Assembly (NCBI GenBank): GCA_035622975.1
Contig: DASPUH010000133.1
Span: forward strand, 966-64,965
Direction of reading: 5' to 3'
DNA from: Candidatus Sulfotelmatobacter sp.
GTDB taxonomy: Bacteria; Chloroflexota; Limnocylindria; Limnocylindrales; CSP1-4
Length of the DNA stretch: 64,000 bases
The notes beneath the pieces are model-generated. The model ran no database searches. It had not been told where the DNA came from and was given only the letters and a program-made list of their open reading frames with translations. A program made the position numbers and the translations under genes. This document shows positions 2,902 to 37,829 of the stretch, in pieces (within the stretch, counting starts at the first letter, position 1; every line of letters starts with the position of its first letter).

Positions 2902-2997
2902 CCTCGGATGATACGGCCGGGCGCGCCGCGACCGGGCGGGAGGGTTGCCGTGCACCCTCCGTCGACCACGACGTCCGCGTGCCCACACGGGAGATCG

Positions 2998-3104
2998 GCT
3001 CGGATCAGGCCGGTCCGCGGCACCCGGCGAGCAGCGCTTATCGCTGCTTCCTTCCGGACCTGACGAGGTTCGCGCGTCGCCGCTGCGCGGGACCCGATCC
3101 TCAA
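2998..3104 (-). ncRNA. ffs: signal recognition particle RNA (4.5S/ffs-type, small)
   Basis: Minus strand carries the invariant domain IV motif GUCAGGUCCGGAAGGAAGCAGC (plus 3041-3062). A closing helix joins GGAUCGGGUCC with GGACCGGCCUGAUCC. Located immediately upstream of dnaX, the conserved position. Confidence 0.7.
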
Positions 3105-3231
3105 CGTCGATCACCCCGGCGGCATCCGCGAACGCGGGCCTCGGGAGGGGATTCAGTCCTGCTGGAGCGGATTGCAGGTACAGGGCACCGCTAGTTCCCC
3201 ACCTAGCACGGCCCGCGGATGATAGTCCCTC

Positions 3232-5167: not shown

Positions 5168-5255
5168 TGGCGGAGAGGGAGGGATTCGAACCCTCGATGG
5201 GTTGCCCCATACCGCATTTCCAGTGCGGCGCCCTCGGCCACTAGGCGACCTCTCC
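5168..5255 (-). tRNA. tRNA-Ser (anticodon GGA), type II with long variable arm
   Basis: Minus-strand read GGAGAGGTCGCCTAGTGGCCGAGGGCGCCGCACTGGAAATGCGG...GGTTCGAATCCCTCCCTCTCCGCCA. 7-bp acceptor stem, CCA encoded, anticodon loop CTGGAAA. Confidence 0.85.
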
Positions 5256-5269
5256 GGGGGCTCGTGGAG

Positions 5270-5356
<87 letters not shown>

Positions 5357-9722: not shown

Positions 9723-9798
9723 TGGCGCGCCCGGCGAGACTCGAACTCACGGCCTTTAGGTCCGCAACCTAACGCTCTATCCACTGAGCTACGGGCGC
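9723..9798 (-). tRNA. tRNA-Arg, anticodon read as GCG (unusual)
   Basis: Minus-strand 76-nt cloverleaf GCGCCCGTAGCTCAGTGGATAGAGCGTTAGGTTGCGGACCTAAAGGCCGTGAGTTCGAGTCTCGCCGGGCGCGCCA. Anticodon stem TTAGG/CCTAA, loop TTGCGGA. Backbone nearly identical to E. coli tRNA-Arg. Confidence 0.75.
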
Positions 9799-9827
9799 AC
9801 GCGTGTCGCGGAGGGGCCCGGAGGGAG

Positions 9828-9920
<93 letters not shown>

Positions 9921-15052: not shown

Positions 15053-16675
15053 GTGGAGCTGGTCCTCATCGGCCTGCCCGGCAGCGGCAAGAGCGCCGTC
15101 GGGCGCCGCATCGCCCACGCTCATCACGCCGAGTTCGTGGACCTGGACGCGGCGATCGAAGCACGCGCCGGGGCGCCGCCGGCGGCCATCTTCGAACGCG
15201 AGGGCGAGGCGGCCTTCCGGGTCCATGAGGCAGCGGCGATCGACGCCCTGGGAGAGCCCGACCGCAGCCACCCGCTGAGGCGGGTCGTCGCCACGGGCGG
15301 CGGGGCGGTCGTCGCGCCGCGCAACCGGTGGCGGCTGTTCCGCGACCGCCGCGTGGTGTGGCTCGATGCCGCCGATGGGGTCCTGGCCCGCCGGCTGGAG
15401 CGAAGTGCCACCCCGCGGCCGCTCCTCGTGGGCCGCGATCCGGTCCGCGCCCTGGAGGCGTTGCGGGCGGCGCGCCTGCGCTTCTACGCGGCGGCGCCCC
15501 GGGTCGACGCGACGGGCCGCCCGGACGAGGTCGCGCCACGCGTCGAGCGATCGCTGCGAGGCGGCGCGCCGGCCCTCACCCTGCTCGACGCGCACACCCG
15601 CGTCGGCGAGCTCGTCCTGGGCCTGGACATGGCCGGGGGCACCGTGGCCCGCGTGCTGGACGACCTGCGCGCCACGCGTGTCGCGGTCGTGTCGGAGCCC
15701 GCCGCGTGGCGCCTCCACGGGGAGCGGCTGACGGTGAGCCTGGCGGCGCCCGGTCGCCTCGTCGAACCGCTGCTGCTGCCGCGGGGCGAGCGGGCCAAGT
15801 CGTTCGCCGCCCTGGAACGCGCCGTGCGCGAACTCGCCCGGCGGCAGCACGAACGCGGCGACCCCCTGGTCACCATCGGCGGCGGAGCGGTCGGCGACAC
15901 CGGCGGCCTGGTGGCGGCGCTGTACGCGCGCGGTGTGCCCTTCATCCAGGTGCCGACGACCCTGCTCGGCCAGATCGACTCGTCCATCGGGGGCAAGACG
16001 GCCATCGACATCCCCGAGGGCAAGAACCTCGTGGGGGCCTTCCACCAGCCAAGAGCCATCGTGCTCGACGTGGGTCTGCTGGCCACGCTGCCACCGCGTC
16101 AGCGACGCGCCGCCCTGGGCGAGGCGGTCAAGATGGCCGCCCTGGGCGACGAGGCGCTCTTCGACCTGCTCGAGCGTGAGGGCCGCGCGCTCGCCGCGGG
16201 CAGCCCGGCGGCCGTGGCGTCGGGCGCGCTTGCCGAGCTCGTGGAGCGCTGCGCGTGGGCCAAGGTGGAGGTCGTGCTGGCCGACGAACGCGAGGCCGAC
16301 CGGCGGATGGCCCTGAACCTGGGCCACTCGATCGGCCACGCCCTGGAAAGCGCCAACGGTTACCACGGCCTCCTGCACGGCGAGGCGGTGGCGCTCGGGC
16401 TGCGCGGGGCGGTGGCCGTGGGCCTGGCCCTCGGCGTGACACCGGCGGCCCGCGGCCGGCGCATCGTCGCCCTGCTGGACCACCTGGGCCTCGGCATGGC
16501 CGCGCCGGCGGTCCCCGCCGAGGAGGTGCGCGTCCGCCTCGCCAGGGATAAGAAGGTCGCCGGCGGACGTCTGCGCTGGGTGCTGCCGACGGCCACCGGG
16601 ATCGCGGTCCGAGCCGACGTACCGGACGGAGCCGTGGACGCGGGACTCGCGGCGGCCCTGCGGGGCGCGGCCTGA
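15053..16675 (+). CDS. aroKB: bifunctional shikimate kinase / 3-dehydroquinate synthase (AroK-AroB fusion)
   Basis: 540 aa, GTG start. N-terminal P-loop LIGLPGSGKSAVGRRIA (shikimate kinase, about 170 aa). C-terminal DHQ synthase core (GGGAVGDTGGLVAALYARGVPFIQVPTTLLGQIDSSIGGKTAID...HGEAVALG). Confidence 0.85.
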   Translation: MELVLIGLPGSGKSAVGRRIAHAHHAEFVDLDAAIEARAGAPPAAIFEREGEAAFRVHEAAAIDALGEPDRSHPLRRVVATGGGAVVAPRNRWRLFRDRRVVWLDAADGVLARRLERSATPRPLLVGRDPVRALEALRAARLRFYAAAPRVDATGRPDEVAPRVERSLRGGAPALTLLDAHTRVGELVLGLDMAGGTVARVLDDLRATRVAVVSEPAAWRLHGERLTVSLAAPGRLVEPLLLPRGERAKSFAALERAVRELARRQHERGDPLVTIGGGAVGDTGGLVAALYARGVPFIQVPTTLLGQIDSSIGGKTAIDIPEGKNLVGAFHQPRAIVLDVGLLATLPPRQRRAALGEAVKMAALGDEALFDLLEREGRALAAGSPAAVASGALAELVERCAWAKVEVVLADEREADRRMALNLGHSIGHALESANGYHGLLHGEAVALGLRGAVAVGLALGVTPAARGRRIVALLDHLGLGMAAPAVPAEEVRVRLARDKKVAGGRLRWVLPTATGIAVRADVPDGAVDAGLAAALRGAA

Positions 16676-17100
16676 TGCGCGTCCTCGTCCTCGACGGCCC
16701 CAACCTGGACCTGCTTGGCGAGCGGGAGCCGGAGATCTATGGCCACGACACGCTGGCCGCGATCCACCAGCGGACGCGCGCCCATGCCGACGAGCTGGGC
16801 CTCCAGGTGGACTTCTTCCAGTCGAACCACGAGGGCGCCCTGATCGACCGCCTGCACCTCAGGGATTTTGACGCGGCCGTCGTCAACGCCGGTGGCCTGA
16901 CCCACACCTCCGTCGCGCTGCGTGACGCCCTGCTGGGCGTGGCGCGCCCCTTCGTGGAGGTCCACCTGACGGACCCGGCCACGCGCGAGGCCTTCCGGCG
17001 CATCAACTTCCTGCAGGACATCGCCGTTGCGTCGATCGTCGGCCACGGGCCGCGCGGCTACCTGGAGGCGCTGGACCTGCTCGCGGCACGGGCCGCCTGA
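16675..17100 (+). CDS. aroQ: type II 3-dehydroquinate dehydratase
   Basis: 141 aa, VLDGPNLDLLGEREPEIYG...FQSNHEGALID...NAGGLTHTSVALRDA. TGATG overlap with aroKB. Confidence 0.9.
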   Translation: MRVLVLDGPNLDLLGEREPEIYGHDTLAAIHQRTRAHADELGLQVDFFQSNHEGALIDRLHLRDFDAAVVNAGGLTHTSVALRDALLGVARPFVEVHLTDPATREAFRRINFLQDIAVASIVGHGPRGYLEALDLLAARAA

Positions 17101-17441
17101 TGCCGCGCGTCCGGCCCGGCGAGACGATCGAGATGCGCCGCGTGCGCCGCCGCATCGACGCGCTCGACCGGCGCATCGTGGAGCTGCTCAACGAACGTGC
17201 CCGCCTGGGGATGGCCATGGGCGAAGCGAAGGCCGAAGCCGGCAAGGCCGTCACGGACCCGGAGCGCGAGCGCGAGGTGCTGCTCCGCGTGGCCACCACC
17301 AACGACGGCCCGCTCCTGCAGGCCGACCTCATCGCCGTCTACCGCCGCATCATCGCCGCCACGCGACACCTGGAACGCAGCGCGCGCGGCCGGGGTCGCG
17401 GGCCGGCCCGGGACCGCGACGACGCCGACCCGGAACCCTGA
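17100..17441 (+). CDS. chorismate mutase (AroQ-class, monofunctional)
   Basis: 113 aa. R..ID.LDRRIVELLNERARL....K and REREVL helical chorismate-mutase signature. 1-nt overlap with the aroQ stop. Confidence 0.75.
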   Translation: MPRVRPGETIEMRRVRRRIDALDRRIVELLNERARLGMAMGEAKAEAGKAVTDPEREREVLLRVATTNDGPLLQADLIAVYRRIIAATRHLERSARGRGRGPARDRDDADPEP

Positions 17442-17447
17442 CCGGAC

Positions 17448-18524
17448 ATGATCGAACGGCTGGCCGACCGGGCCCTCAACCGCACGGTCGGCCGGCCCCT
17501 GCCACCGGTACGCGAGGACGTCGCCGCCTTCCACGCGTCCATCCCGGTGGTCGACCTGCTGGTGGGCACCCTCCTCTTCCGCCGCGCGGTCGACCGACGC
17601 CTGCAGCACGGCCATGTCGACCTGCCACGGGCGCGCGAGGGTGGCCTGGACCTGGCCGGGTTCACCATCGCGACGCGGTTCCCGGACGAGCGAGGGGTCC
17701 TCTCCGCACCGCATTTCGCCACGCTAGGCCTCGCTCCGTGGCGGGGCTCGCCGATCGAGCTGGTGGAGGCGCTGGTCCACCGGCTCGAGGGCTGGGCGGC
17801 CGGGTCGGGCGGCCGGTTCGTGCTGGCTCGCGCGGCGGCCGACCTCGGGGCGGTCGGCCGGGATGGGGCGCTGCGCGCGTTCATCGGCGTGCAGGGCGGC
17901 CAGGCGGTCGGCGGCGACCTGCGCAACGTGGCCCGCCTCCGGGCGCTGGGCGTGCGCATGCTGGGCCTCGCCCACATCATGGACTCGGCGCTGGCCGGCT
18001 CCGGCTCCGGCCGGGACGCAGGCGGCCTCACGGGCTTCGGCCGCGAGGCGGTCGCCGAGTGCGAGGCCCAGGGCATCCTCGTCGACCTGGCCCACGCTTC
18101 GCCGGCCACGATCCGTGACGCCGTGCCGCTCCTGAGCCGGCCGTTCCTCGTCAGCCACACCGGGTTCACGGCGCTGGCCGGTGGCCGCAGCGGGTGGCGC
18201 CGCTACAGCCCGGCCACGCGGAACATCGCGGACGCGGAGGCGCACCTCGTGGCGGAGGCCGGCGGGCTCATCGGCGTGACGCTCGCGGCTCCCCTGATCG
18301 GCGGGGCGACGGTGGAGGCGGTGGTGCGAAGCTTCGAGCACGCCCTGGAGCTGGCCGGCCCTGCCCAGGTGGCGCTGGGCTCCGACTTCGACGGCGCCCT
18401 GACCATGCCATTCGACGTGCGCGGGCTGCCCTCGCTGACGCAGGGCCTCCTGGACGCGGGGCTGGGCCCCGACGTGGTAGCCGCCGTGATGGGCGGCAAC
18501 GCCCTACGGGTGCTGCGCGCCTGA
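17448..18524 (+). CDS. membrane dipeptidase, peptidase family M19
   Basis: 358 aa. HGHVDLPRAREGGLDLAGF, GVRMLGLAHIMDSALAGS, LVDLAHASPATIRDAV, LVSHTG, ALGSDFDG match the renal-dipeptidase family pattern. Last gene in line with the aro operon (7-nt gap). Confidence 0.7.
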   Translation: MIERLADRALNRTVGRPLPPVREDVAAFHASIPVVDLLVGTLLFRRAVDRRLQHGHVDLPRAREGGLDLAGFTIATRFPDERGVLSAPHFATLGLAPWRGSPIELVEALVHRLEGWAAGSGGRFVLARAAADLGAVGRDGALRAFIGVQGGQAVGGDLRNVARLRALGVRMLGLAHIMDSALAGSGSGRDAGGLTGFGREAVAECEAQGILVDLAHASPATIRDAVPLLSRPFLVSHTGFTALAGGRSGWRRYSPATRNIADAEAHLVAEAGGLIGVTLAAPLIGGATVEAVVRSFEHALELAGPAQVALGSDFDGALTMPFDVRGLPSLTQGLLDAGLGPDVVAAVMGGNALRVLRA

Positions 18525-19361
18525 CCAGCGTCCGGCGCGGGCGAGCTGCCCCGCGAGCCGCGCCATCCGTGGTACGTCGCGACCGTCGGGGCCGAGCGCG
18601 TCCACCAGCGCGGACGCGACGATGACCCCATCGACCGAGCGGGCCAGGCGCCGCACGTGGGCCGGCCGCGAGACACCAAAGCCGACCGCCACCGGGCCGT
18701 GGGCGACCGCGCGGACCTGGCCCAGGAACTGCGTCACGTCACGCGGCAGCCGGCTGCGGGCGCCGGTAACGCCGACGAGCGAGACGGTGTACAGGAAGCC
18801 GCCCGTGGTGGCGGCGATGTGGGCGCGGCGGGTGGGCGGGGTCGTCGGGGTGACGAGGTAGACGAGCGCGAGGCCCGCCTCGCGCGCCGCGGCCTCCACC
18901 GGTGCGCCCTCGTCCGGCGTCAGGTCAGCCAGGATGACGCCACTGGCCCCGGCCGCCGCCAGCCGCCCGAGGCGGCGAGCAGGATCGCCGTCGCCGAGCG
19001 CCTGGTTGACATAGGCCATCGGCACGAGCGGCGTGTCCGGCCGCGCCTGGTGGATCGCCCCCAGCAGCTCCACCGAGCGATCGAACGTCGCCCCGTTCCG
19101 CAGTGCCACCGCGGAGGCGCGCTGGAGCGTGGTGCCGTCGGCGAGCGGGTCGCTGTACGGCAGGCCCAGCTCCATGGCGTCCGCTCCGGCATCGATCGAG
19201 GCGAGCGCCACCTCCAGGCTGGTGGCGGCGTCGGGGTAGCCGGCCACGACGTAGGGCACGAACGCGACGCGGCGGTCGCGGGCGGCGCGGGCGAACGCGG
19301 CGTGCAGACGCTCCGCGCCGGGCGTCTCATCGGTCCCCCGCACGGCGGTGGTGGCGGTCAC
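18504..19361 (-). CDS. trpA: tryptophan synthase alpha chain
   Basis: 285 aa. FVPYVVAGYPD, MELGLPYSDPLADG, GFGVS. The 3' end overlaps the convergent dipeptidase by 21 nt. Confidence 0.9.
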   Translation of the reverse strand: MTATTAVRGTDETPGAERLHAAFARAARDRRVAFVPYVVAGYPDAATSLEVALASIDAGADAMELGLPYSDPLADGTTLQRASAVALRNGATFDRSVELLGAIHQARPDTPLVPMAYVNQALGDGDPARRLGRLAAAGASGVILADLTPDEGAPVEAAAREAGLALVYLVTPTTPPTRRAHIAATTGGFLYTVSLVGVTGARSRLPRDVTQFLGQVRAVAHGPVAVGFGVSRPAHVRRLARSVDGVIVASALVDALGPDGRDVPRMARLAGQLARAGRWSGAQHP

Positions 19362-22162
19362 GCCGACCCGCCTGCGCCATCGCCCAGCACGCCGAGATCC
19401 TTGTCGCCGCGTCCGGACAGGCCCAGCAGGACGACCGAGCCGCCGGCCAGCGGCGGCCGGCCGGCCGAGCCGGTCAGCAGGCGGGGCAGGGCGGCGATGG
19501 CATGGGCGGGCTCCAGGGCCGGGATGATGCCCTCGGTGCGGGTCAGCAGGCGCATCGCGTCCACCGCCTCCGTGTCGGTCGCAGCCAGCACCTCAAGCCG
19601 CCCCGCGGCGTAGAGCGCGGAGAGCTGGGGCCCGATGCCGGGGTAATCGAGCCCGGCGCTGAGCGAGACGGCCTCCACGACCTGGCCGTCGGCGTCCTGG
19701 AGCATGTACGAGCGGGAGCCGTGGAGGATGCCCGGTGTGCCGCCGGCCAGCGCCGCCGCGTGCCGCCCGGTGGCCAGTCCCTCCCCGGCCGCCTCCACCC
19801 CTACGAGGCGGACGGCCGGCTCGCCGATGAAGCGTGACAGGAGCCCGAGCGCGTTCGAGCCGCCGCCGAGGCACGCGACCGCCACGGCCGGCAGCCGACC
19901 CTCCATCTCGAACAGCTGCACCGCGGCCTCGTCACCGATGCGACGCTGGAGGTCGCGCACGATCAGCGGGTAGGGATGCGGCCCGACCGCCGACCCCAGG
20001 ACGTAGTGGGTGGTGGCCACGTTGGTGACCCAGTCGCGCATCGCCTCGTTGACCGCGTCCTTCAGCGTGGCGCTGCCGCTCGTGACGGTCACCACGTCAG
20101 CCCCCAGGGCCCGCATGCGCAGCACGTTGGGCGCCTGGCGCCGGATGTCCTCGGCACCCATGTAGACGACGCATGGCAGGTCCAGCAGGGCGCAGGCGGT
20201 GGCCGTCGCGACGCCGTGCTGCCCGGCGCCCGTCTCGGCGATGACCCTGGTCTTGCCCAGGCGGCGAGTGAGGAGGGCCTGGCCGAGCGCGTTGTTGATC
20301 TTGTGGGCCCCAGTGTGGTTCAGGTCCTCGCGCTTGAGCCAAAGGTGGATCGCGCCCGCGTCCCGTCCCGCTTGGCGAGCCACGGCCGCGGCGAGCCGAT
20401 CCGCCCGGTAGAGCGCCGACGGACGACCGACGTACCGCGTCCCGAGCTCCCGGAGCTGGGCCCAGTAGCGGGGATCGGCGCGGACGGTCGACCAGGCTGC
20501 CTCGAGCTGCTCGAGCGCGTTGACCAGCGTCTCAGGCACGTACCGGCCGCCGAACGCGCGGTCCGTGCCCCATCGGCCGTGGTCATCCACCTCCACCAGG
20601 CCGGGCGCGACGGGGCTCGGCCGCGCGGCGACCGTCGGGCGGTCGAAGCGGGCGGCCCTGGCGCGCTTGACGAAGAGGGCCGTCCGGAACGGGTCCTTGC
20701 GCGGGCGCTGGCCCGGCCGGCGCGGCAGGTCGGTGCCCGACGCCACGTCGACGCCGGTGGCGGACACGGCCAGCACCGCCTCACCGACGGTGGCGGGATC
20801 AAGGCCGCCAGCGAGGATGACCGGCACCTCGCGGGCGACGGCCGCCGCGACGGCGCGATCCACCGCCACGCCGGTTCCCCCGGCGTGCAGCCCGCCGGCG
20901 GCGTCCAGCAGCACTCGCTCGACCGGCGGCAGCGCGAGCCAGCCCTGGATGCTCGCCACGAGCTCCGGTGCGGCCCGGTCGGCATGGACCGTCTTCCAGA
21001 CGGGTCGCCCGACGGCGGCCACGACCTCCGGCGGCTCGTCCCCTGAGCACTGCACGGCGTCGGGATCGAGGGCGTCGACGAGGGCTGCCAGGTCGGCCGC
21101 CGACGCGTCCGCCGTGACCGCCACGAGGCGCGGCGTCGACCCTGTGCGAGACGCCCGCAGCAGGCCGGCGAGGGCCGCGGCCCCCGGCAGCTCCAGGCAA
21201 CGGGGCGTGCCTGGCACCACGTTGAGGCCGACCGCGTCGGCACCGGCACGGACGGCGGCCAGCAGCCCGTCCTCGTCGGTGACGCCGCAGATCTTGACGA
21301 GCGGCCCGCGGGCGTACGCGGCCGCGTCATCTGGCACCGCGCCGGCTGCCTCGAGGACGCGGGCAGCGGCTTCCGGCTCCCCCGCCCGCATGAGCGCCTC
21401 GCCGACTAGCACCGCGTCCACGCCGAGCGCGCGCAGGTCGCGCACGGCCGCCGCGTCACGGATCCCCGACTCGGCCACCACGACCCGGTCACGGGGCACG
21501 CAACCGACCAGGGCCACCACCCGCACGGGGTCGACCGCGAGGGTCCGCAGGTCCCGCGCGTTGAGGCCGATGACCCGGGCCGGCGTGCCGAGCGCTCGTT
21601 CCAGCTCCCGCTCGTCATGGGCCTCGACCAGCGGCTCCAGGCCCAGGTCCAGGGCCTGGCGCACGAGCCGCGCCAGCCGGGCCGCCGGATGGAGCGCGGC
21701 CAGCAGCAGGACGGCGTCCGCGCCGGCCAGCCGCAGCTGCGGCAGCTGGCGGGGGTCGACCACGAACTCCTTGGCCAGCACCGGCAGGGCCACGGCCGCG
21801 CGCACGAGGCGCACGTCATCCAGTGAGCCCCCGAAGTGGCGGGGCTCGCACAGCACCGAGATGGCGGCGGCGCCCCCGGCCGCGTACGCGCGCGCCCGCT
21901 CCGCCACGTCGAGGTCTGCGCCAGCCAGCCGGCCCGCGGACGGCGAGGCACGCTTGACCTCCGCGATCAGACGCGTGCCTGGCGCCGCCAGGCGCTCCGC
22001 GAAGGGGCGCGGCGGAGCCGCTCGGCGCGCGTCCCGCCGCAGCTCGTGGAGCGAGGCCCCGCCGAGCTCAGCCAGCACGTCGGCCTGTCGCTGCGCGGCG
22101 ATCCGGCCGAGCACGCCGAGGCGCGCGGCCGGCGGCCGGACGCGAGGCGCGACCACGGTCAT
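19358..22162 (-). CDS. trpCFB: single ORF encoding indole-3-glycerol-phosphate synthase (TrpC), phosphoribosylanthranilate isomerase (TrpF) and tryptophan synthase beta (TrpB)
   Basis: 935 aa from ATG 22160-22162 (overlaps the trpD stop as ATGA). TrpC region: LIAEVKRASPSAG...ESGI. TrpF region: LVKICGVTDEDG...VDVASG. TrpB region: FGGRYVPETL...LNHTGAHKINN...GGGSNA. No stop codon between domains. The upstream 130 aa of ORF 19358..22552 were rejected. Confidence 0.8.
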   Translation of the reverse strand: MTVVAPRVRPPAARLGVLGRIAAQRQADVLAELGGASLHELRRDARRAAPPRPFAERLAAPGTRLIAEVKRASPSAGRLAGADLDVAERARAYAAGGAAAISVLCEPRHFGGSLDDVRLVRAAVALPVLAKEFVVDPRQLPQLRLAGADAVLLLAALHPAARLARLVRQALDLGLEPLVEAHDERELERALGTPARVIGLNARDLRTLAVDPVRVVALVGCVPRDRVVVAESGIRDAAAVRDLRALGVDAVLVGEALMRAGEPEAAARVLEAAGAVPDDAAAYARGPLVKICGVTDEDGLLAAVRAGADAVGLNVVPGTPRCLELPGAAALAGLLRASRTGSTPRLVAVTADASAADLAALVDALDPDAVQCSGDEPPEVVAAVGRPVWKTVHADRAAPELVASIQGWLALPPVERVLLDAAGGLHAGGTGVAVDRAVAAAVAREVPVILAGGLDPATVGEAVLAVSATGVDVASGTDLPRRPGQRPRKDPFRTALFVKRARAARFDRPTVAARPSPVAPGLVEVDDHGRWGTDRAFGGRYVPETLVNALEQLEAAWSTVRADPRYWAQLRELGTRYVGRPSALYRADRLAAAVARQAGRDAGAIHLWLKREDLNHTGAHKINNALGQALLTRRLGKTRVIAETGAGQHGVATATACALLDLPCVVYMGAEDIRRQAPNVLRMRALGADVVTVTSGSATLKDAVNEAMRDWVTNVATTHYVLGSAVGPHPYPLIVRDLQRRIGDEAAVQLFEMEGRLPAVAVACLGGGSNALGLLSRFIGEPAVRLVGVEAAGEGLATGRHAAALAGGTPGILHGSRSYMLQDADGQVVEAVSLSAGLDYPGIGPQLSALYAAGRLEVLAATDTEAVDAMRLLTRTEGIIPALEPAHAIAALPRLLTGSAGRPPLAGGSVVLLGLSGRGDKDLGVLGDGAGGSA

Positions 22163-23211
22163 GCGGTGGCTGCCGGGGCCGCGGCTTCGGCGGCGGCCCG
22201 CCGGGCGCGCAGGCGGGTGAGGAGCGCTGCGGCCGCCCCCGAGTCGATGGTCCGGGCGGCCAGCTGGGTGCCGGCGCGCAGCGTCGCCGCCCGGCCGGCG
22301 ACCTGCAGCGCGGCCGCCGCGTTGAGCACGACGACCGCGCGGCGCGGGCCCTCCGCACCGCCGAGCAGGGCCTCGATGAGGCGCGCGTTCTCGGCCGGCG
22401 TGCCGCCGCGCAGGGCCTCCGTCGGCACGACCGGCAGGCCCAGTTGGCGCAGGTCGGCGGCCGTCACAGCCTGTCGGGTGATGCCGCCCGGCCTCACGTC
22501 GTGGATGATCCCGCTGCCGTCCAGCGGCAGCTCGTCGACGCGGTCGCCGCACACCACGAACGTGCGCTCGGTGCCCAGCTCGCGGGCTACCGCCGCGATG
22601 GCCGCGGCTACGGTGACGTCGGCCACGCCCAGGAGTTGACGGCGCACGCCGGCCGGGTTGGTCAGCGGACCGACCAGGTTGAACGCGGTTCGAACGCCGA
22701 TCTCGCGGCGCGTCGGTCCCGCGTGACGCATCGCAGGGTGGAAGCCAGGCGCGAACAGGAAGGCGAAGCCGTCCTCGCGCAGCGCCTCGGCCGCCGCGTC
22801 GGGGGTCTGCTCGACCGTCACGCCGAGGGCGTCGAGGACGTCCGTGGAGCCGGACGCGGAGGTGATCGCCCGGTTGCCGTGCTTGGCCACCGGCACACCC
22901 GTGGCGGCCACGACGAGCGCCGCGGCGGTGCTGATGTTGAACGTGCCGCTCCCGTCACCCCCGGTGCCCACCACGTCGATCGCCCCTGCGGGCGCAGTGA
23001 CCCGCAGGACGCGCTCGCGCATGACGGTGGCGAACCCGGTCAGCTCCTCCACCGTCTCACCGCGCACCCGCAACGCCATGAGGAGCGCCGCGATCTGGGA
23101 CGGCGTCGCCTCGCCGTCCATGACCTGGGTCATCGCGGCGCGAGCCTCCTCGCGCGTCAGGCTCTGGCCCTCGACGATCGCTGCCAGCGCGGCGCGGACC
23201 GCGTCGCTCAT
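22159..23211 (-). CDS. trpD: anthranilate phosphoribosyltransferase
   Basis: 350 aa. GTGGDGSGTFNISTAAALVVAATGVPVAKHGNR. Confidence 0.9.
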   Translation of the reverse strand: MSDAVRAALAAIVEGQSLTREEARAAMTQVMDGEATPSQIAALLMALRVRGETVEELTGFATVMRERVLRVTAPAGAIDVVGTGGDGSGTFNISTAAALVVAATGVPVAKHGNRAITSASGSTDVLDALGVTVEQTPDAAAEALREDGFAFLFAPGFHPAMRHAGPTRREIGVRTAFNLVGPLTNPAGVRRQLLGVADVTVAAAIAAVARELGTERTFVVCGDRVDELPLDGSGIIHDVRPGGITRQAVTAADLRQLGLPVVPTEALRGGTPAENARLIEALLGGAEGPRRAVVVLNAAAALQVAGRAATLRAGTQLAARTIDSGAAAALLTRLRARRAAAEAAAPAATA

Positions 23212-23918
23212 CTGGTCGCACCGGCGGGCGCCGCCAGCCCGTGCGTGGCGAAGCCCGTCGCGGCCGCCGCGTCAAGGATGTCGGCATGGCCCTGGCCGGT
23301 CAGGCGGAGGAAGTTGGCCAGGATGCGCGGCCCGGCCGGCGTGAGGACGGACTCGGGGTGGAACTGCACGCCCTCCAGTGGCAGGGTCCGGTGGCGCATC
23401 GCCATGACCACTCCGTCGGCGGTGCGACCGGTGACCTCGAGGGTCACCGGCAGGGTGCCCTCATCGACCGTCAGCGAGTGGTATCGCGCGGCGGGAAAGG
23501 GCGAGGGCAGGCCCTCCAGCAGGCCCCGGCCGTCATGGATGATCTCGCTGGCCTCGCCGTGGACCAGCGTCGGCGCACGAGCGATGGTCGCCCCGAAAGC
23601 GGCACCCAGGCACTGGTGGCCCAGGCACACCCCGAGCAGCGGGATCCCCCATGCCGCCGCGACCTCCACGGCGGCCACGGAGACGCCGGCCGAGCCCGGC
23701 TCACCGGGTCCGGGCGAGATGACGATGCCCGCCAGGCGGTCGTCATGTGGCCCGGCGCCTGCCGCCTCCCGCGCCAGGGCCTCCAGGCTCTCCCGATCGA
23801 GGGCGTCGTTACGGACGACGCGCAGGGCGGCTCCGGCGACCTCGAGCGCCTGGACGAGGTTGAAGGTGAAGCTGTCGTAGTTGTCGATGACGAGGATCAC
23901 CCGTTCACCCCGCTCCAT
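23208..23918 (-). CDS. trpG: anthranilate synthase component II (glutamine amidotransferase)
   Basis: 236 aa class I GATase. GVCLGHQ catalytic Cys, HPES. Overlaps trpD and trpE by 4 and 14 nt. Confidence 0.88.
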   Translation of the reverse strand: MERGERVILVIDNYDSFTFNLVQALEVAGAALRVVRNDALDRESLEALAREAAGAGPHDDRLAGIVISPGPGEPGSAGVSVAAVEVAAAWGIPLLGVCLGHQCLGAAFGATIARAPTLVHGEASEIIHDGRGLLEGLPSPFPAARYHSLTVDEGTLPVTLEVTGRTADGVVMAMRHRTLPLEGVQFHPESVLTPAGPRILANFLRLTGQGHADILDAAAATGFATHGLAAPAGATR

Positions 23919-25551
23919 GGTGCGTCACGAGCGACGGGCCGTTCGTCGCGCCGGTCGCCTCGGCGGCCGCCGCGAGCGCGCCGCGCATGGCCGCCGCCTT
24001 GTGCTCGGTCTCCTCGAACTCGCTGGAGGGGACGCTGCCCGCCACGATCCCCGCTCCGGCGTGCAGGTGGAGCGCGCCGTCGCGCAGGACCGCCGAGCGG
24101 ATGGCGATGGCTGTATCCAGGTTGCCGTCGTAGCCCAGGTAGCCGACGGCGCCCCCGTAGATGCCGCGCCGCTCGCCCTCGAGCTGGGCGATGAGTTGCA
24201 TCGCGCGGACCTTCGGGGCGCCGGACAGCGTGCCGGCCGGGAACACGCTGCGCAGCGCATCCAGCGCGTCGAGGCCCGGCCGCAGGCGGCCCTCCACGTG
24301 GCTGACCAGGTGCAGGACGTGGCTGTAGCGCTCGACCTCCATGTACCGCGTGACCGCCACCGATCCGGCCACCGCCACCCGGCCCAGGTCGTTGCGCCCG
24401 AGGTCGACCAGCATGACGTGCTCGGCGCGCTCCTTGGGGTCGCGCTGCAACTCGTCGGCGATGCGCTCGTCCTCGCGCTCGTCGGCGCCCCGCGGGCGCG
24501 TGCCCGCGATGGGGTGCGTGGTGAGCGCATCACCCTCGACCCGCAGGAGGAGTTCGGGGCTCGCGCCGACGACCTCGAATGCCGGATGGCGCACGTAGAA
24601 GAGGTACGGGCTGGGGTTGATGCGCCGCAGCGCACGGTACAGGTCCAGGCCGCCGAGGGGCCGACCGTCGGGCCGCGTCGGGAGGGCCATCGTCTGGCGG
24701 CGGGCGAGCACGATCTGGATCGCCTCGCCGGCGGCGATGGCCTGCTTGGCGGCGACGACCGCCGATTCGTACGCGTCGCGGCTCAGGCTTGCCTCGACCG
24801 CAGCCGTGCGGCCGGGGGCGCCGCCCGTTCCGGGCCGGGCCACGACCTCCTCGAGCTCCGATCGGCTCGGCCGCCGGGTCCGTTCCAGGGCCTCGAAGAT
24901 GGCCCGCTCGGCGACGCGGTAGCGGCCTTCGAGGTCGGGTGCCGCGGTATGGAGCGACGCGATCGCCGAGAGGGTCTGGGTCAGGTGGTCGAAGACCAGC
25001 ACGAGATCGGTCTCCAGGAACGCGGCGAGCGGCACCGCGACGGGATCCCGGGCCGGCTGCGTCACGGGCTCGAAGCAGCCGACGGCGTCATAGGCCAGCA
25101 CCCCGACGGCGCCCCCCGTGAACCGCGGCATCTCGCTGGTGGGCGCGACGCGGCGGCGAGGCGCAAAAGCCCGCAGCGCGGCCAGCGGGTCGGTCGCTTC
25201 GGCCGTCGTGGTCGGCAGGTCGGGCGTGTACGTGTCGACCGAGAGGGGGCGCGTGGTGATGCGCGCGCTGGCGCCCGTGACCTCCAGGACGCGACGCGGC
25301 GAGACACCCAGGAAGGAATAACGGCCCACCCGCTCGCCACCCTCCACCGACTCGAGCAGGTAGCACGGCCCGCCGTCGTCCAGGCGCAGGAGGGCGCCCA
25401 TCGGCGTCTCCAGGTCGGCCGCCCGCGACGCGCGCAGCAGGATCGTGTCGGCGTTGCCGGCCAGGCGGCGCGTCTCGGTGATGCTCAGCGGGTCGGGCAG
25501 GGCCATGGCGGTGCGTGTTCCTTCAGTGCGCCGGATGAGGCCGGGAATCAC
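23905..25551 (-). CDS. trpE: anthranilate synthase component I
   Basis: Chorismate-binding enzyme motifs (LESVEGGERVGRYSF, GAVGYLGYDG, IRS). Start placed at GTG 25549-25551 with SD GAAAGG 5 nt upstream. An internal ATG at 25506 is the alternative start. Confidence 0.85.
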   Translation of the reverse strand: MIPGLIRRTEGTRTAMALPDPLSITETRRLAGNADTILLRASRAADLETPMGALLRLDDGGPCYLLESVEGGERVGRYSFLGVSPRRVLEVTGASARITTRPLSVDTYTPDLPTTTAEATDPLAALRAFAPRRRVAPTSEMPRFTGGAVGVLAYDAVGCFEPVTQPARDPVAVPLAAFLETDLVLVFDHLTQTLSAIASLHTAAPDLEGRYRVAERAIFEALERTRRPSRSELEEVVARPGTGGAPGRTAAVEASLSRDAYESAVVAAKQAIAAGEAIQIVLARRQTMALPTRPDGRPLGGLDLYRALRRINPSPYLFYVRHPAFEVVGASPELLLRVEGDALTTHPIAGTRPRGADEREDERIADELQRDPKERAEHVMLVDLGRNDLGRVAVAGSVAVTRYMEVERYSHVLHLVSHVEGRLRPGLDALDALRSVFPAGTLSGAPKVRAMQLIAQLEGERRGIYGGAVGYLGYDGNLDTAIAIRSAVLRDGALHLHAGAGIVAGSVPSSEFEETEHKAAAMRGALAAAAEATGATNGPSLVTHHGAG

Positions 25552-25805
25552 GACGACCTTTCGTCCTCCGGGACGAAAGGTCGTGCCTTCCGCGGTGCCA
25601 CCCGCCTTCGACGACCAGTCCGGTCGTCGCGCTCTGCCGACGGACCGCGCGGCGGTCGATCGGTGCTGCCCTGGTAACGCTGGCGCCCTGCGCCGGAGCC
25701 TACCGGGCGGACCTTGGTCCGCCGTTCGGTCCGGGGCTCACGGGTCCATTCCCCGCCGCCCTCGCTCCGGCTTGCACCAGCCGCCGGTTCTCTTGGCCGA
25801 GGATC
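25549..25805 (-). promoter_or_regulatory. T-box riboswitch leader, Trp-specific (UGG specifier); its 3' helix overlaps the trpE SD and GTG start (translation-level, actinobacterial-type)
   Basis: Minus-strand RNA carries T-box sequence GGGUGGCACCGCG (plus 25591-25603), where UGGC would pair with NCCA of a G73 tRNA. A 14-bp helix CACGACCUUUCGUCC/GGACGAAAGGUCGU (plus 25549-25585) contains AAAGG and the GUG start. Upstream there are Stem I-like elements: AGAGA, GGUGCAA distal loop, specifier loop GGGAAUGGAC. Confidence 0.65.
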
Positions 25806-25973
25806 GTCGGGTACTCGTCCCGTTCACAGCCGTCTTCAGTTGTGGAGCGCGAGTCTAGGCGGGGCCCGGAAGGGTGTCAACGACGACATGCCGTGTGGTG
25901 GCCGGCGACTCGGTCTGGCCAGCGGATGCGCGGTGCGCTAACGTCCGACCGGCATGCTGACGGTGGTGGGCAG

Positions 25974-37743: not shown

Positions 37744-37829
37744 TGGCGGAGAGGGTGGGATTCGAACCCACGAGGCTTTCGCCCGGCGGTTTTCAAGACC
37801 GCTGCCATCAACCACTCGGCCACCTCTCC
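37744..37829 (-). tRNA. tRNA-Ser (anticodon TGA), type II
   Basis: 86-nt minus-strand read GGAGAGGTGGCCGAGTGGTTGATGGCAGCGGTCTTGAAAACCGCCGGGCGAAAGCCTCGTGGGTTCGAATCCCACCCTCTCCGCCA. Anticodon loop CTTGAAA. Confidence 0.85.

What the first reader, a model, noticed from the sequence alone, without database searches (positions are those of the whole stretch)
19358..22162. TrpC, TrpF and TrpB encoded as one continuous 935-codon ORF
The six-frame translation runs without any stop from the TrpC start (ATG 22160) through a complete TrpF domain (LVKICGVTDEDG ... VDVASG) and an about 30-aa Pro/Ala-rich linker into a complete TrpB (FGGRYVPETL ... HTGAHKINN ... GGGSNA). TrpC-TrpF fusions are well known (E. 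coli TrpCF). A TrpF-TrpB junction, giving a single polypeptide carrying three consecutive pathway activities, appears uncommon to me. TrpA follows as a separate gene (4-nt overlap).
Basis: seen in the sequence. Interest (0 to 1): 0.6.

Follow-up and report, generated by a model that had tools for sequence, protein, structure and literature searches.

The report
Fused TrpC-TrpF-TrpB tryptophan enzyme
One real gene here encodes three tryptophan-making enzymes (TrpC, TrpF, TrpB) as a single 96-kDa protein; this fusion is standard in one group of Chloroflexota soil bacteria and extends known trp gene fusions, so it is not a new kind of system.

Summary
Minus strand 22162..19358 is one 934-codon ORF with complete IGPS (TrpC), PRAI (TrpF) and TrpB domains. 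Codon-position GC is continuous across both junctions, and the ORF has ATGA and GTGA overlaps with trpD and trpA.

It is not an assembly artefact. An identical protein is in NCBI nr (HXX61716.1, annotated only as "tryptophan synthase subunit beta"). Three other contig records (ENA, JGI) carry copies differing by 2-5 residues. The best 120 homologue clusters (65-87% identity) all have the same three-domain architecture. About 50 Limnocylindria-type Chloroflexota species genomes carry it in the same trpE-G-D-(CFB)-A operon.

No conserved internal start exists for TrpB. Catalytic residues of all three domains are invariant across the family. The true TrpF-TrpB connector is about 15 residues, not 30. 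It has fixed length and a conserved sequence (DRPxxxxRPxPVxPG).

The fused pair is not unprecedented. NCBIfam has TrpF/TrpB and TrpC/TrpB bifunctional models, and a 2024 survey calls trpF-trpB fusion rare but present in bacteria and archaea. Larger fusions also exist (D-C-F-B, and eukaryotic A-F-B-D-C).

Verdict: a real, lineage-wide, uncharacterised trifunctional variant of known trp fusions, of modest interest. A Trp-specific T-box leader precedes trpE.

The parts
25566..25836 (-). T-box leader with a UGG (Trp) specifier, upstream of trpE. Its 3' hairpin covers the GGAGG Shine-Dalgarno of trpE. It is the likely regulator of the whole operon.
   Evidence: Rfam RF00230 scores 64 bits, E=1.2e-13, full-length model match, but below the gathering score of 93. 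Sequence read.
23905..25551 (-). trpE (anthranilate synthase component I)
   Evidence: ORF. Pfam Chorismate_bind and Anth_synt_I_N.
23208..23918 (-). trpG (glutamine amidotransferase component II)
   Evidence: ORF. Pfam GATase.
22159..23211 (-). trpD (anthranilate phosphoribosyltransferase). Its stop overlaps the trpCFB ATG as ATGA.
   Evidence: Pfam Glycos_transf_3 and Glycos_trans_3N. Overlap read.
19358..22162 (-). trpC-trpF-trpB fused ORF, 934 aa, 96.3 kDa
   Evidence: Mass.
21347..22114 (-). TrpC (IGPS) domain, residues 17-272. Catalytic E68, K70, K131, E180, N201, E231 and S232 are present.
   Evidence: Alignment to M. tuberculosis IGPS 3qja. All except S232 are invariant across 61 family members; S232 is conserved in at least 90%. 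Numbering.
21305..21346 (-). TrpC-TrpF junction, residues 273-286 (AAGxxPxDPxxxAR). Predicted to be structured.
   Evidence: Alignment. AF2 pLDDT 94-98 across residues 261-300.
20651..21304 (-). TrpF (PRAI) domain, residues 287-504. C292 and D420 are present, and the C-terminal helix KDPxRxALFVKRARAA is intact.
   Evidence: Alignment to PRAI structures 4wui and 5lhf. C292 and D420 are invariant.
20603..20650 (-). TrpF-TrpB connector, residues 505-520 (RFDRPTVAARPSPVAP). Fixed length. R508, P509, P515, P517 and V518 are nearly invariant in the family.
   Evidence: No stop and no conserved start or SD in 39 loci.
19385..20602 (-). TrpB (PLP-dependent beta subunit, TrpB1 type), residues 521-926. 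PLP lysine K621 lies in HTGAHKINN; GGGSNA is at 766-771.
   Evidence: TIGR00263 scores 533 bits against a cutoff of 392. PDB 5ey5 and 5tcf alignments. Foldseek TMt 0.82-0.84.
18504..19361 (-). trpA (tryptophan synthase alpha), a separate gene. Its GTG start overlaps the trpCFB TGA stop as GTGA.
   Evidence: Pfam Trp_syntA at 228 bits. Overlap read.

Best explanation
This is a genuine fused gene. It arose when the stop codons and intergenic gaps between the adjacent trpC, trpF and trpB genes of a canonical trpE-G-D-C-F-B-A operon were lost. It was then fixed in the Limnocylindria-type Chloroflexota lineage.

The gene is translated as one 96-kDa polypeptide carrying three intact active sites. 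The reaction sequence is:
- TrpF converts PRA to CdRP.
- TrpC converts CdRP to indole-3-glycerol phosphate (IGP).
- The separately encoded TrpA, translationally coupled to the fusion, cleaves IGP to indole.
- The TrpB domain condenses indole with serine to give tryptophan.

Inferred, not shown: the protein dimerises through its TrpB domains and binds two TrpA. That would give a roughly 250-kDa (CFB)2A2 assembly holding four consecutive activities at fixed 1:1:1:1 stoichiometry. The domain order C-F-B reflects gene order, not reaction order. The operon as a whole appears to be controlled by a tRNA-Trp-sensing T-box leader.
For: Shown in the sequence:
- A single frame with no stop, and continuous GC3 phase.
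- All three domains are full length against Pfam and NCBIfam models.
- Catalytic residues are present; most are invariant and S232 is at least 90% conserved across 61 homologues at 66-87% identity.

Shown by comparison:
- An identical protein is in NCBI (HXX61716.1). Three other contig records carry copies differing by 2-5 residues.
- The top 120 clusters at 90% identity all have IGPS+PRAI+PALP and lengths of 927-983 aa.
- About 50 Chloroflexota species genomes have the same single frame. The 7 exceptions, all long-read 'MFD' MAGs, break frame inside domains while homology continues in another frame. That pattern is what indel errors would give, not gene boundaries.
- The operon order E-G-D-(CFB)-A is conserved. 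Dehalococcoidia and Ktedonobacteria have the same order with separate genes.
- Among 39 loci, 21 have no in-frame ATG/GTG/TTG in the 30 codons before the GRWG motif, and none has one preceded by an SD-like word.
- The connector has fixed length and a conserved sequence.
- The AF2 model has mean pLDDT 84 and pTM 0.89 for the whole 934-residue chain. That value implies confidently placed domains.
- The T-box with a UGG specifier lies upstream of trpE.
Against: There is no protein-level evidence. Nothing was shown about proteolytic processing, activity of each domain, oligomeric state or TrpA binding.

Only 64 kb of the genome is visible. Stand-alone trpC, trpF or trpB paralogues elsewhere in the genome cannot be excluded; none lies in the window.

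Parts of the TrpB domain have low pLDDT in the AF2 model (residues 531-541 and 806-832). The pTM rests on a shallow alignment of one family.

No kinetic advantage or substrate channelling was tested.
Confidence: 0.85

Rival explanations
1. Assembly or sequencing artefact: a missed stop or frameshift between trpF and trpB (or between trpC and trpF) falsely joins separate genes.
For: High-GC DNA (72-81% here) has few chance stops, so long false ORFs are common; many appear. Seven related long-read MAG loci do show frame breaks.
Against: The GC3 phase is unbroken through the junctions. The same uninterrupted ORF appears on four different contig records of near-identical sequence, in more than 120 homologue clusters and in about 45 species genomes. 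The connector is conserved in length and sequence with no stop in 39 of 39 loci. The frame breaks in MFD MAGs fall inside domains, not at junctions.
Confidence: 0.02
2. One ORF but more than one protein: internal translation initiation, or post-translational cleavage in the connector, yields a free TrpB (and TrpCF) in addition to, or instead of, the fusion.
For: The window has in-frame GTG codons at positions -6 and -4 relative to GRWG, and a GGAGG within GTGGAGGTG. Pro-rich connectors can be protease-accessible. AF2 confidence drops at residues 521-541.
Against: The in-frame start codons are not conserved: 21 of 39 loci have none in the 30 codons upstream, and none has an SD-like word at proper spacing. 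In the window the GGAGG abuts the GTG with no spacing. The connector is under sequence and length constraint, which suggests a structural role and not a disposable spacer.
Confidence: 0.08
3. The fusion is real but one domain is a non-catalytic scaffold (pseudo-enzyme), and a stand-alone paralogue elsewhere supplies that activity.
For: The TrpF domain is the most divergent: 52-62% identity within the family against 70-75% for TrpB, and weak matches to PDB PRAIs (E about 1e-12). Only the window is visible.
Against: The catalytic Cys292 and Asp420 of TrpF, the IGPS catalytic set and the TrpB PLP lysine are present across the family; all are invariant except S232, which is at least 90% conserved. 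No paralogue lies in the window. The gene sits in the only visible trp operon, under a Trp T-box.
Confidence: 0.05

Closest known systems
E. coli-type bifunctional TrpCF (IGPS-PRAI; NCBIfam NF006945/PRK09427; PDB 7etx, and 1PII from my own knowledge)
   Same: Same N-to-C order of the IGPS barrel and then the PRAI barrel in one chain, joined by a short structured junction. The match covers residues 17-479.
   Different: Here the chain continues into TrpB. The score is 262 bits against the family cutoff of 380, so it is not an equivalog member. The Alteromonas and Treponema loci show TrpCF with a separate TrpB.
Bifunctional PRAI/TrpB (NCBIfam NF010376/PRK13803); trpF-trpB fusions reported as rare in bacteria and archaea (PMC11237513)
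   Same: The same TrpF-to-TrpB junction direction. The match covers residues 288-925 in one stretch. Natural examples are P0141, P0142, P0156, P0189 and Verrucomicrobia locus L063.
   Different: The score is 596 bits against a cutoff of 819. The connectors are unrelated and shorter. TrpB-domain identity is 47-54%, no higher than to stand-alone TrpBs at 57-60%, so the fusion event was probably independent. Those proteins lack TrpC.
Bifunctional IGPS/TrpB (NCBIfam NF010375/PRK13802; e.g. P0127, P0132)
   Same: TrpC and TrpB lie on one chain with TrpA separate.
   Different: No TrpF domain lies between them. The score is 599 bits against a cutoff of 1386.
Other three-domain TrpC-F-B clusters (P0125, 893 aa, Chloroflexota MEX1072759.1; P0126, 818 aa; P0144, 948 aa)
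   Same: Identical Pfam architecture and domain order.
   Different: Identity is only 41-51%. The junctions are different: almost no connector in P0125 and P0126, and a long low-complexity Pro/Ala linker in P0144. Their TrpB domain is no closer than stand-alone TrpBs. This suggests recurrent fusion.
Larger trp super-fusions: marine TrpD-C-F-B (P0146, 1220 aa); Paulinella A-F-B-D-C (P0145, 1502 aa); a 2214-aa E-G-A-F-B-D-C protein from the eukprot source (P0154); the Euglena five-domain polypeptide (cited in PMC2395257)
   Same: They contain an F-then-B adjacency and several trp activities on one chain.
   Different: They have more domains and a different order. P0145 and P0154 come from eukaryotic sources, while P0146 comes from marine metagenome contigs of unknown organism. 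TrpA is included in the two eukaryotic ones, whereas here TrpA stays separate.

Membership tests
Tryptophan synthase beta subunit, TrpB1 type (TIGR00263) | Full-length match above the curated equivalog cutoff | tested here: met
   533.3 bits against a cutoff of 392.45, residues 536-924.
Tryptophan synthase beta subunit, TrpB1 type (TIGR00263) | PLP-binding lysine in HTGAHKINN and the GGGSNA phosphate loop | tested here: met
   K621 and residues 766-771 are present and invariant in the family.
Tryptophan synthase beta subunit, TrpB1 type (TIGR00263) | Forms an alpha2-beta2 complex with TrpA and channels indole | not testable with these tools
   Only indirect evidence: trpA is adjacent and overlaps by GTGA. 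The TrpB2-like model scores far lower (147 bits).
Indole-3-glycerol phosphate synthase (Pfam PF00218) | Full-length domain above the gathering score, with the catalytic Glu/Lys/Lys/Glu/Asn/Glu-Ser set | tested here: met
   241.5 bits against a cutoff of 27, covering profile positions 1-252 of 254. E68, K70, K131, E180, N201, E231 and S232 align with M. tuberculosis IGPS.
Phosphoribosylanthranilate isomerase (Pfam PF00697) | Domain above the gathering score, with the catalytic Cys (beta1) and Asp (beta6) | tested here: met
   73.7 bits against a cutoff of 22.7. C292 and D420 align and are invariant.
Bifunctional PRAI/TrpB (NF010376, PRK13803) | Score above the curated equivalog cutoff (819 bits) | tested here: not met
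   595.8 bits. The architecture also differs by an extra N-terminal IGPS domain.
Bifunctional IGPS/TrpB (NF010375, PRK13802) | Score above the curated equivalog cutoff (1386 bits), with IGPS directly joined to TrpB | tested here: not met
   599.4 bits in two stretches. A PRAI domain intervenes.
Bifunctional TrpCF (NF006945, PRK09427) | Score above the curated equivalog cutoff (380 bits) | tested here: not met
   262 bits.
T-box leader (Rfam RF00230), for the operon leader | Score above the Rfam gathering score; specifier codon and T-box sequence present | tested here: inconclusive
   64 bits, below the gathering score of 93, but E=1.2e-13 with a full-length model match. GAA-UGG-A sits at the specifier position and GGGUGGCACCGCG is present.

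The most novel reading that the evidence does not exclude
The fixed-length, sequence-conserved connector and the high whole-chain pTM (0.89) may mean the three domains are rigidly docked. With TrpA bound, the (CFB)2A2 particle would then be a defined four-step 'tryptophan metabolon'. The IGPS active site would be positioned to hand IGP to TrpA, extending the classical indole tunnel into a longer channelled route from labile PRA to tryptophan.
Probability: 0.15. Interest if true: 0.6.

Novelty: new variant of a known kind. Interest (0 to 1): 0.3.

Why it matters
Tryptophan synthase is the textbook case of substrate channelling, and trp gene fusions are a classical system for studying how operons and multi-enzyme proteins evolve.

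This is a natural, lineage-wide protein that tethers the two enzymes upstream of TrpA to TrpB while leaving TrpA free. It offers a ready test of whether fusion serves channelling, stoichiometry or assembly.

It also gives a compact three-in-one part for pathway engineering.

On the practical side, public annotation calls these roughly 950-aa proteins simply 'tryptophan synthase subunit beta'. Pathway reconstructions for Limnocylindria may therefore wrongly score trpC and trpF as missing.

Tried and rejected
- **Frameshift or stop at the junction:** rejected by the GC3 phase plot and by comparison with other genomes.
- **Internal start for TrpB:** I scanned 39 loci for in-frame ATG/GTG/TTG with an SD-like word. 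None was conserved.
- **Apparent 'split' versions in 7 Limnocylindria MAGs:** these turned out to be mid-domain frame breaks in long-read assemblies, not fissions.
- **Apparent full-length matches in other phyla** (Actinomycetota, Lachnospiraceae, Alteromonas, Treponema and others): these are adjacent separate genes, or TrpCF plus TrpB.
- **Literature:** searches for trpCFB, trpFB and trpF-trpB names and for Limnocylindria plus tryptophan gave no description of this triple fusion. The Xie/Jensen 2003 MMBR review is not held.
- **NCBI organism label:** 'Candidatus Sulfotelmatobacter sp.' is doubtful. Protein identities and trp-aroQ-chorismate mutase synteny match Limnocylindria-type Chloroflexota.
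Full report
**1. Observation**

On the minus strand, a stop-free frame runs from 22552 to 19358. The ATG at 22162-22160 overlaps the trpD stop as ATGA. It opens a 934-aa ORF, or 935 codons with the stop. The TGA of that ORF overlaps the GTG start of trpA as GTGA.

Pfam finds three full-length domains:
- IGPS at residues 18-268
- PRAI at residues 289-476
- PALP at residues 597-898

The NCBIfam trpB equivalog TIGR00263 passes its cutoff, 533 against 392 bits.

The DNA is 72-81% G+C, so long chance ORFs are common. I therefore checked codon phase. Third-position GC stays at 0.85-1.00 in the ORF frame along the whole gene. It is 0.95-1.00 exactly across the TrpF-TrpB junction at 20780-20541.

**2. 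Not an artefact**

- The translated protein is identical to NCBI HXX61716.1, which is annotated only as 'tryptophan synthase subunit beta'.
- Three further contig records (ENA and JGI) hold copies that differ by 2-5 residues and have no stop.
- The best 120 clusters at 90% identity in a 5.8-billion-protein collection all carry IGPS+PRAI+PALP. They are 927-983 aa long and 65-87% identical to the query.
- A scan of one genome per GTDB species returned about 50 Chloroflexota loci, labelled Limnocylindrales, Limnocylindria or Chloroflexia. In about 45 of them one open frame spans the whole match.
- The seven exceptions are all 'MFD' long-read MAGs. Each breaks frame inside a domain, with homology continuing in another frame. 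That pattern is what indel errors would give, not gene boundaries.

In other phyla the same query matches adjacent but separate trpC, trpF and trpB genes, or TrpCF plus TrpB.

**3. Anatomy**

The operon is trpE (23905-25551), trpG (23208-23918), trpD (22159-23211), trpCFB (19358-22162) and trpA (18504-19361). This order is conserved in every family locus examined. Dehalococcoidia and Ktedonobacteria have the same order with unfused genes. That fits an origin by loss of the stops between neighbouring genes, and it explains why the domain order (C-F-B) follows gene order and not reaction order (F, C, A, B).

No paralogue of any trp gene lies elsewhere in the window.

Alignment to solved structures places the domains as follows:
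- The IGPS domain spans residues 17-272. The M. tuberculosis catalytic set is intact: E68, K70, K131, E180, N201, E231 and S232.
- The PRAI domain spans residues 287-504, with C292 and D420. Its C-terminal helix KDPxRxALFVKRARAA is intact.
- TrpB homology begins at residue 520 against M. tuberculosis TrpB. The PLP lysine is K621 and the GGGSNA loop is at 766-771.

These catalytic residues are invariant in a 61-sequence family alignment, except S232, which is conserved in at least 90%.

**4. The connector**

The stretch that belongs to no domain covers residues 505-520, about 15 aa and not 30. It is not a variable, floppy linker. Within the family it has no length variation, and R508, P509, P515, P517 and V518 are nearly invariant. 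The motif is DRPxxxxRPxPVxPG.

AlphaFold2, run with the family alignment, gives mean pLDDT 84 and pTM 0.89 for the whole 934-residue chain. By my inference, a chain of three independently tumbling domains would not reach that value. The TrpC-TrpF junction is modelled at pLDDT 94-98. The connector is at 77-93. The first 20 residues of TrpB and a few TrpB loops are modelled poorly. Foldseek confirms the TrpB fold (TMt 0.82-0.84 to 5tcf and 5ey5), but it could not address the inter-domain geometry.

**5. One protein or several?**

I looked for a conserved internal start for TrpB in 39 loci with a recognisable connector:
- None has a stop in the connector.
- 21 have no in-frame ATG, GTG or TTG in the 30 codons before the GRWG motif.
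- None has such a codon preceded by a Shine-Dalgarno-like word.

The amino-acid positions that happen to be GTG in the window vary among V, L, I, F and A elsewhere. Internal initiation is therefore unlikely. Proteolytic processing cannot be tested here.

**6. Mechanism**

Shown: one cistron, three intact catalytic domains, and a translationally coupled separate trpA.

Inferred from established knowledge of tryptophan synthase: TrpB1-type beta subunits dimerise and bind alpha subunits. On that basis the polypeptide would dimerise through TrpB and recruit two TrpA. This would give a (CFB)2A2 particle of about 251 kDa (component masses) that carries out four consecutive steps from PRA to tryptophan.

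The likely benefits are fixed stoichiometry, co-assembly and proximity for labile intermediates. True channelling beyond the known indole tunnel is speculative.

**7. Comparison with what is known**

- TrpCF fusions are classical.
- NCBIfam holds curated models for bifunctional PRAI/TrpB (NF010376) and IGPS/TrpB (NF010375). The query is their best-scoring kind of hit but falls below both cutoffs (596 against 819, and 599 against 1386), and below the TrpCF cutoff (262 against 380).
- A 2024 survey states that trpF-trpB fusion is rare but present in bacteria and archaea (PMC11237513).
- An exhaustive HMMER scan of 1.84 billion representatives at 50% identity collapses the Limnocylindria family into one cluster (P0121).
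- That scan also reveals three other C-F-B clusters (P0125, P0126, P0144), several F-B and C-B proteins, a marine D-C-F-B protein (P0146), and A-F-B-D-C and E-G-A-F-B-D-C giants from eukaryote sources. The five-domain Euglena protein is cited in PMC2395257.
- The other fusions have unrelated junctions. Their TrpB domains are no closer to this one than stand-alone TrpBs are. This points to recurrent, independent fusion.
- I found no paper describing the Limnocylindria triple fusion, and no solved structure of any F-B or C-B fusion.

**8. Lineage**

The NCBI label on the identical protein, 'Candidatus Sulfotelmatobacter sp.', is probably a binning or naming error. All trp proteins are 52-75% identical to Limnocylindria-type MAGs. 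The convergent aroQ-chorismate mutase pair downstream of trpA is also conserved in about 30 of those loci.

**9. Verdict**

This is a real, conserved, uncharacterised trifunctional TrpC-TrpF-TrpB enzyme. It is a new architectural variant within the well-known family of trp fusions, it is already present in databases in large numbers, and it is under-annotated there.

Interest is modest (0.3). It would rise if the conserved connector proves to organise a channelled four-enzyme complex.

Noticed in passing
window 25566-25836 (minus strand), just upstream of trpE: A T-box leader scores 64 bits (E=1.2e-13), below Rfam's gathering score of 93, so the default scan missed it. The specifier position reads UGG (Trp). 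The 3' hairpin CGACCUUUCGUCC-CGGAGG-ACGAAAGGUCG encloses the trpE Shine-Dalgarno and has no U-run. This suggests a translational (SD-sequestering) T-box and not a terminator type.
   Followed up: partly
window 16675-18524 (+ strand): aroQ (type II dehydroquinase), a CM_2 chorismate mutase (4-nt overlap with aroQ) and an M19 dipeptidase converge on the 3' end of the trp operon. The aroQ-CM pair is syntenic in about 30 Limnocylindria loci; the dipeptidase is not.
   Followed up: partly
NCBI HXX61716.1 (identical to window 19358-22162): The public record assigns this contig to 'Candidatus Sulfotelmatobacter sp.' (Acidobacteriota). Sequence identity and synteny place it with Limnocylindria-type Chloroflexota, so the bin or label is probably wrong. 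The 934-aa protein is named only 'tryptophan synthase subunit beta', which hides TrpC and TrpF.
   Followed up: partly
P0146 (1220 aa, marine/Tara contigs), P0145 (Paulinella, 1502 aa), P0154 (2214 aa, eukprot source): Still larger trp fusions turned up: TrpD-C-F-B on marine metagenome contigs of unknown organism, A-F-B-D-C in Paulinella, and a single chain with all seven activities (E-G-A-F-B-D-C).
   Followed up: no
L002 8790-9241, L004 8847-9278 (and similar loci): In some family members trpA starts about 430-450 nt after the end of the trpCFB match, instead of overlapping it. This leaves room for an extra small ORF or an N-terminal extension. I did not examine it.
   Followed up: no
L036, L039, L040, L043, L044, L050, L056: Long-read 'MFD' MAGs show one to three frame breaks inside the trpCFB gene, with homology continuing in another frame. 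This pattern is what residual indel errors would give, and gene callers would split or truncate such genes.
   Followed up: yes
window 2948-3211 (-), 5171-5356 (-), 9726-9920 (-), 37747-37829 (-): A large bacterial SRP RNA and five tRNA genes, two of them in tandem pairs. Ordinary housekeeping features.
   Followed up: no
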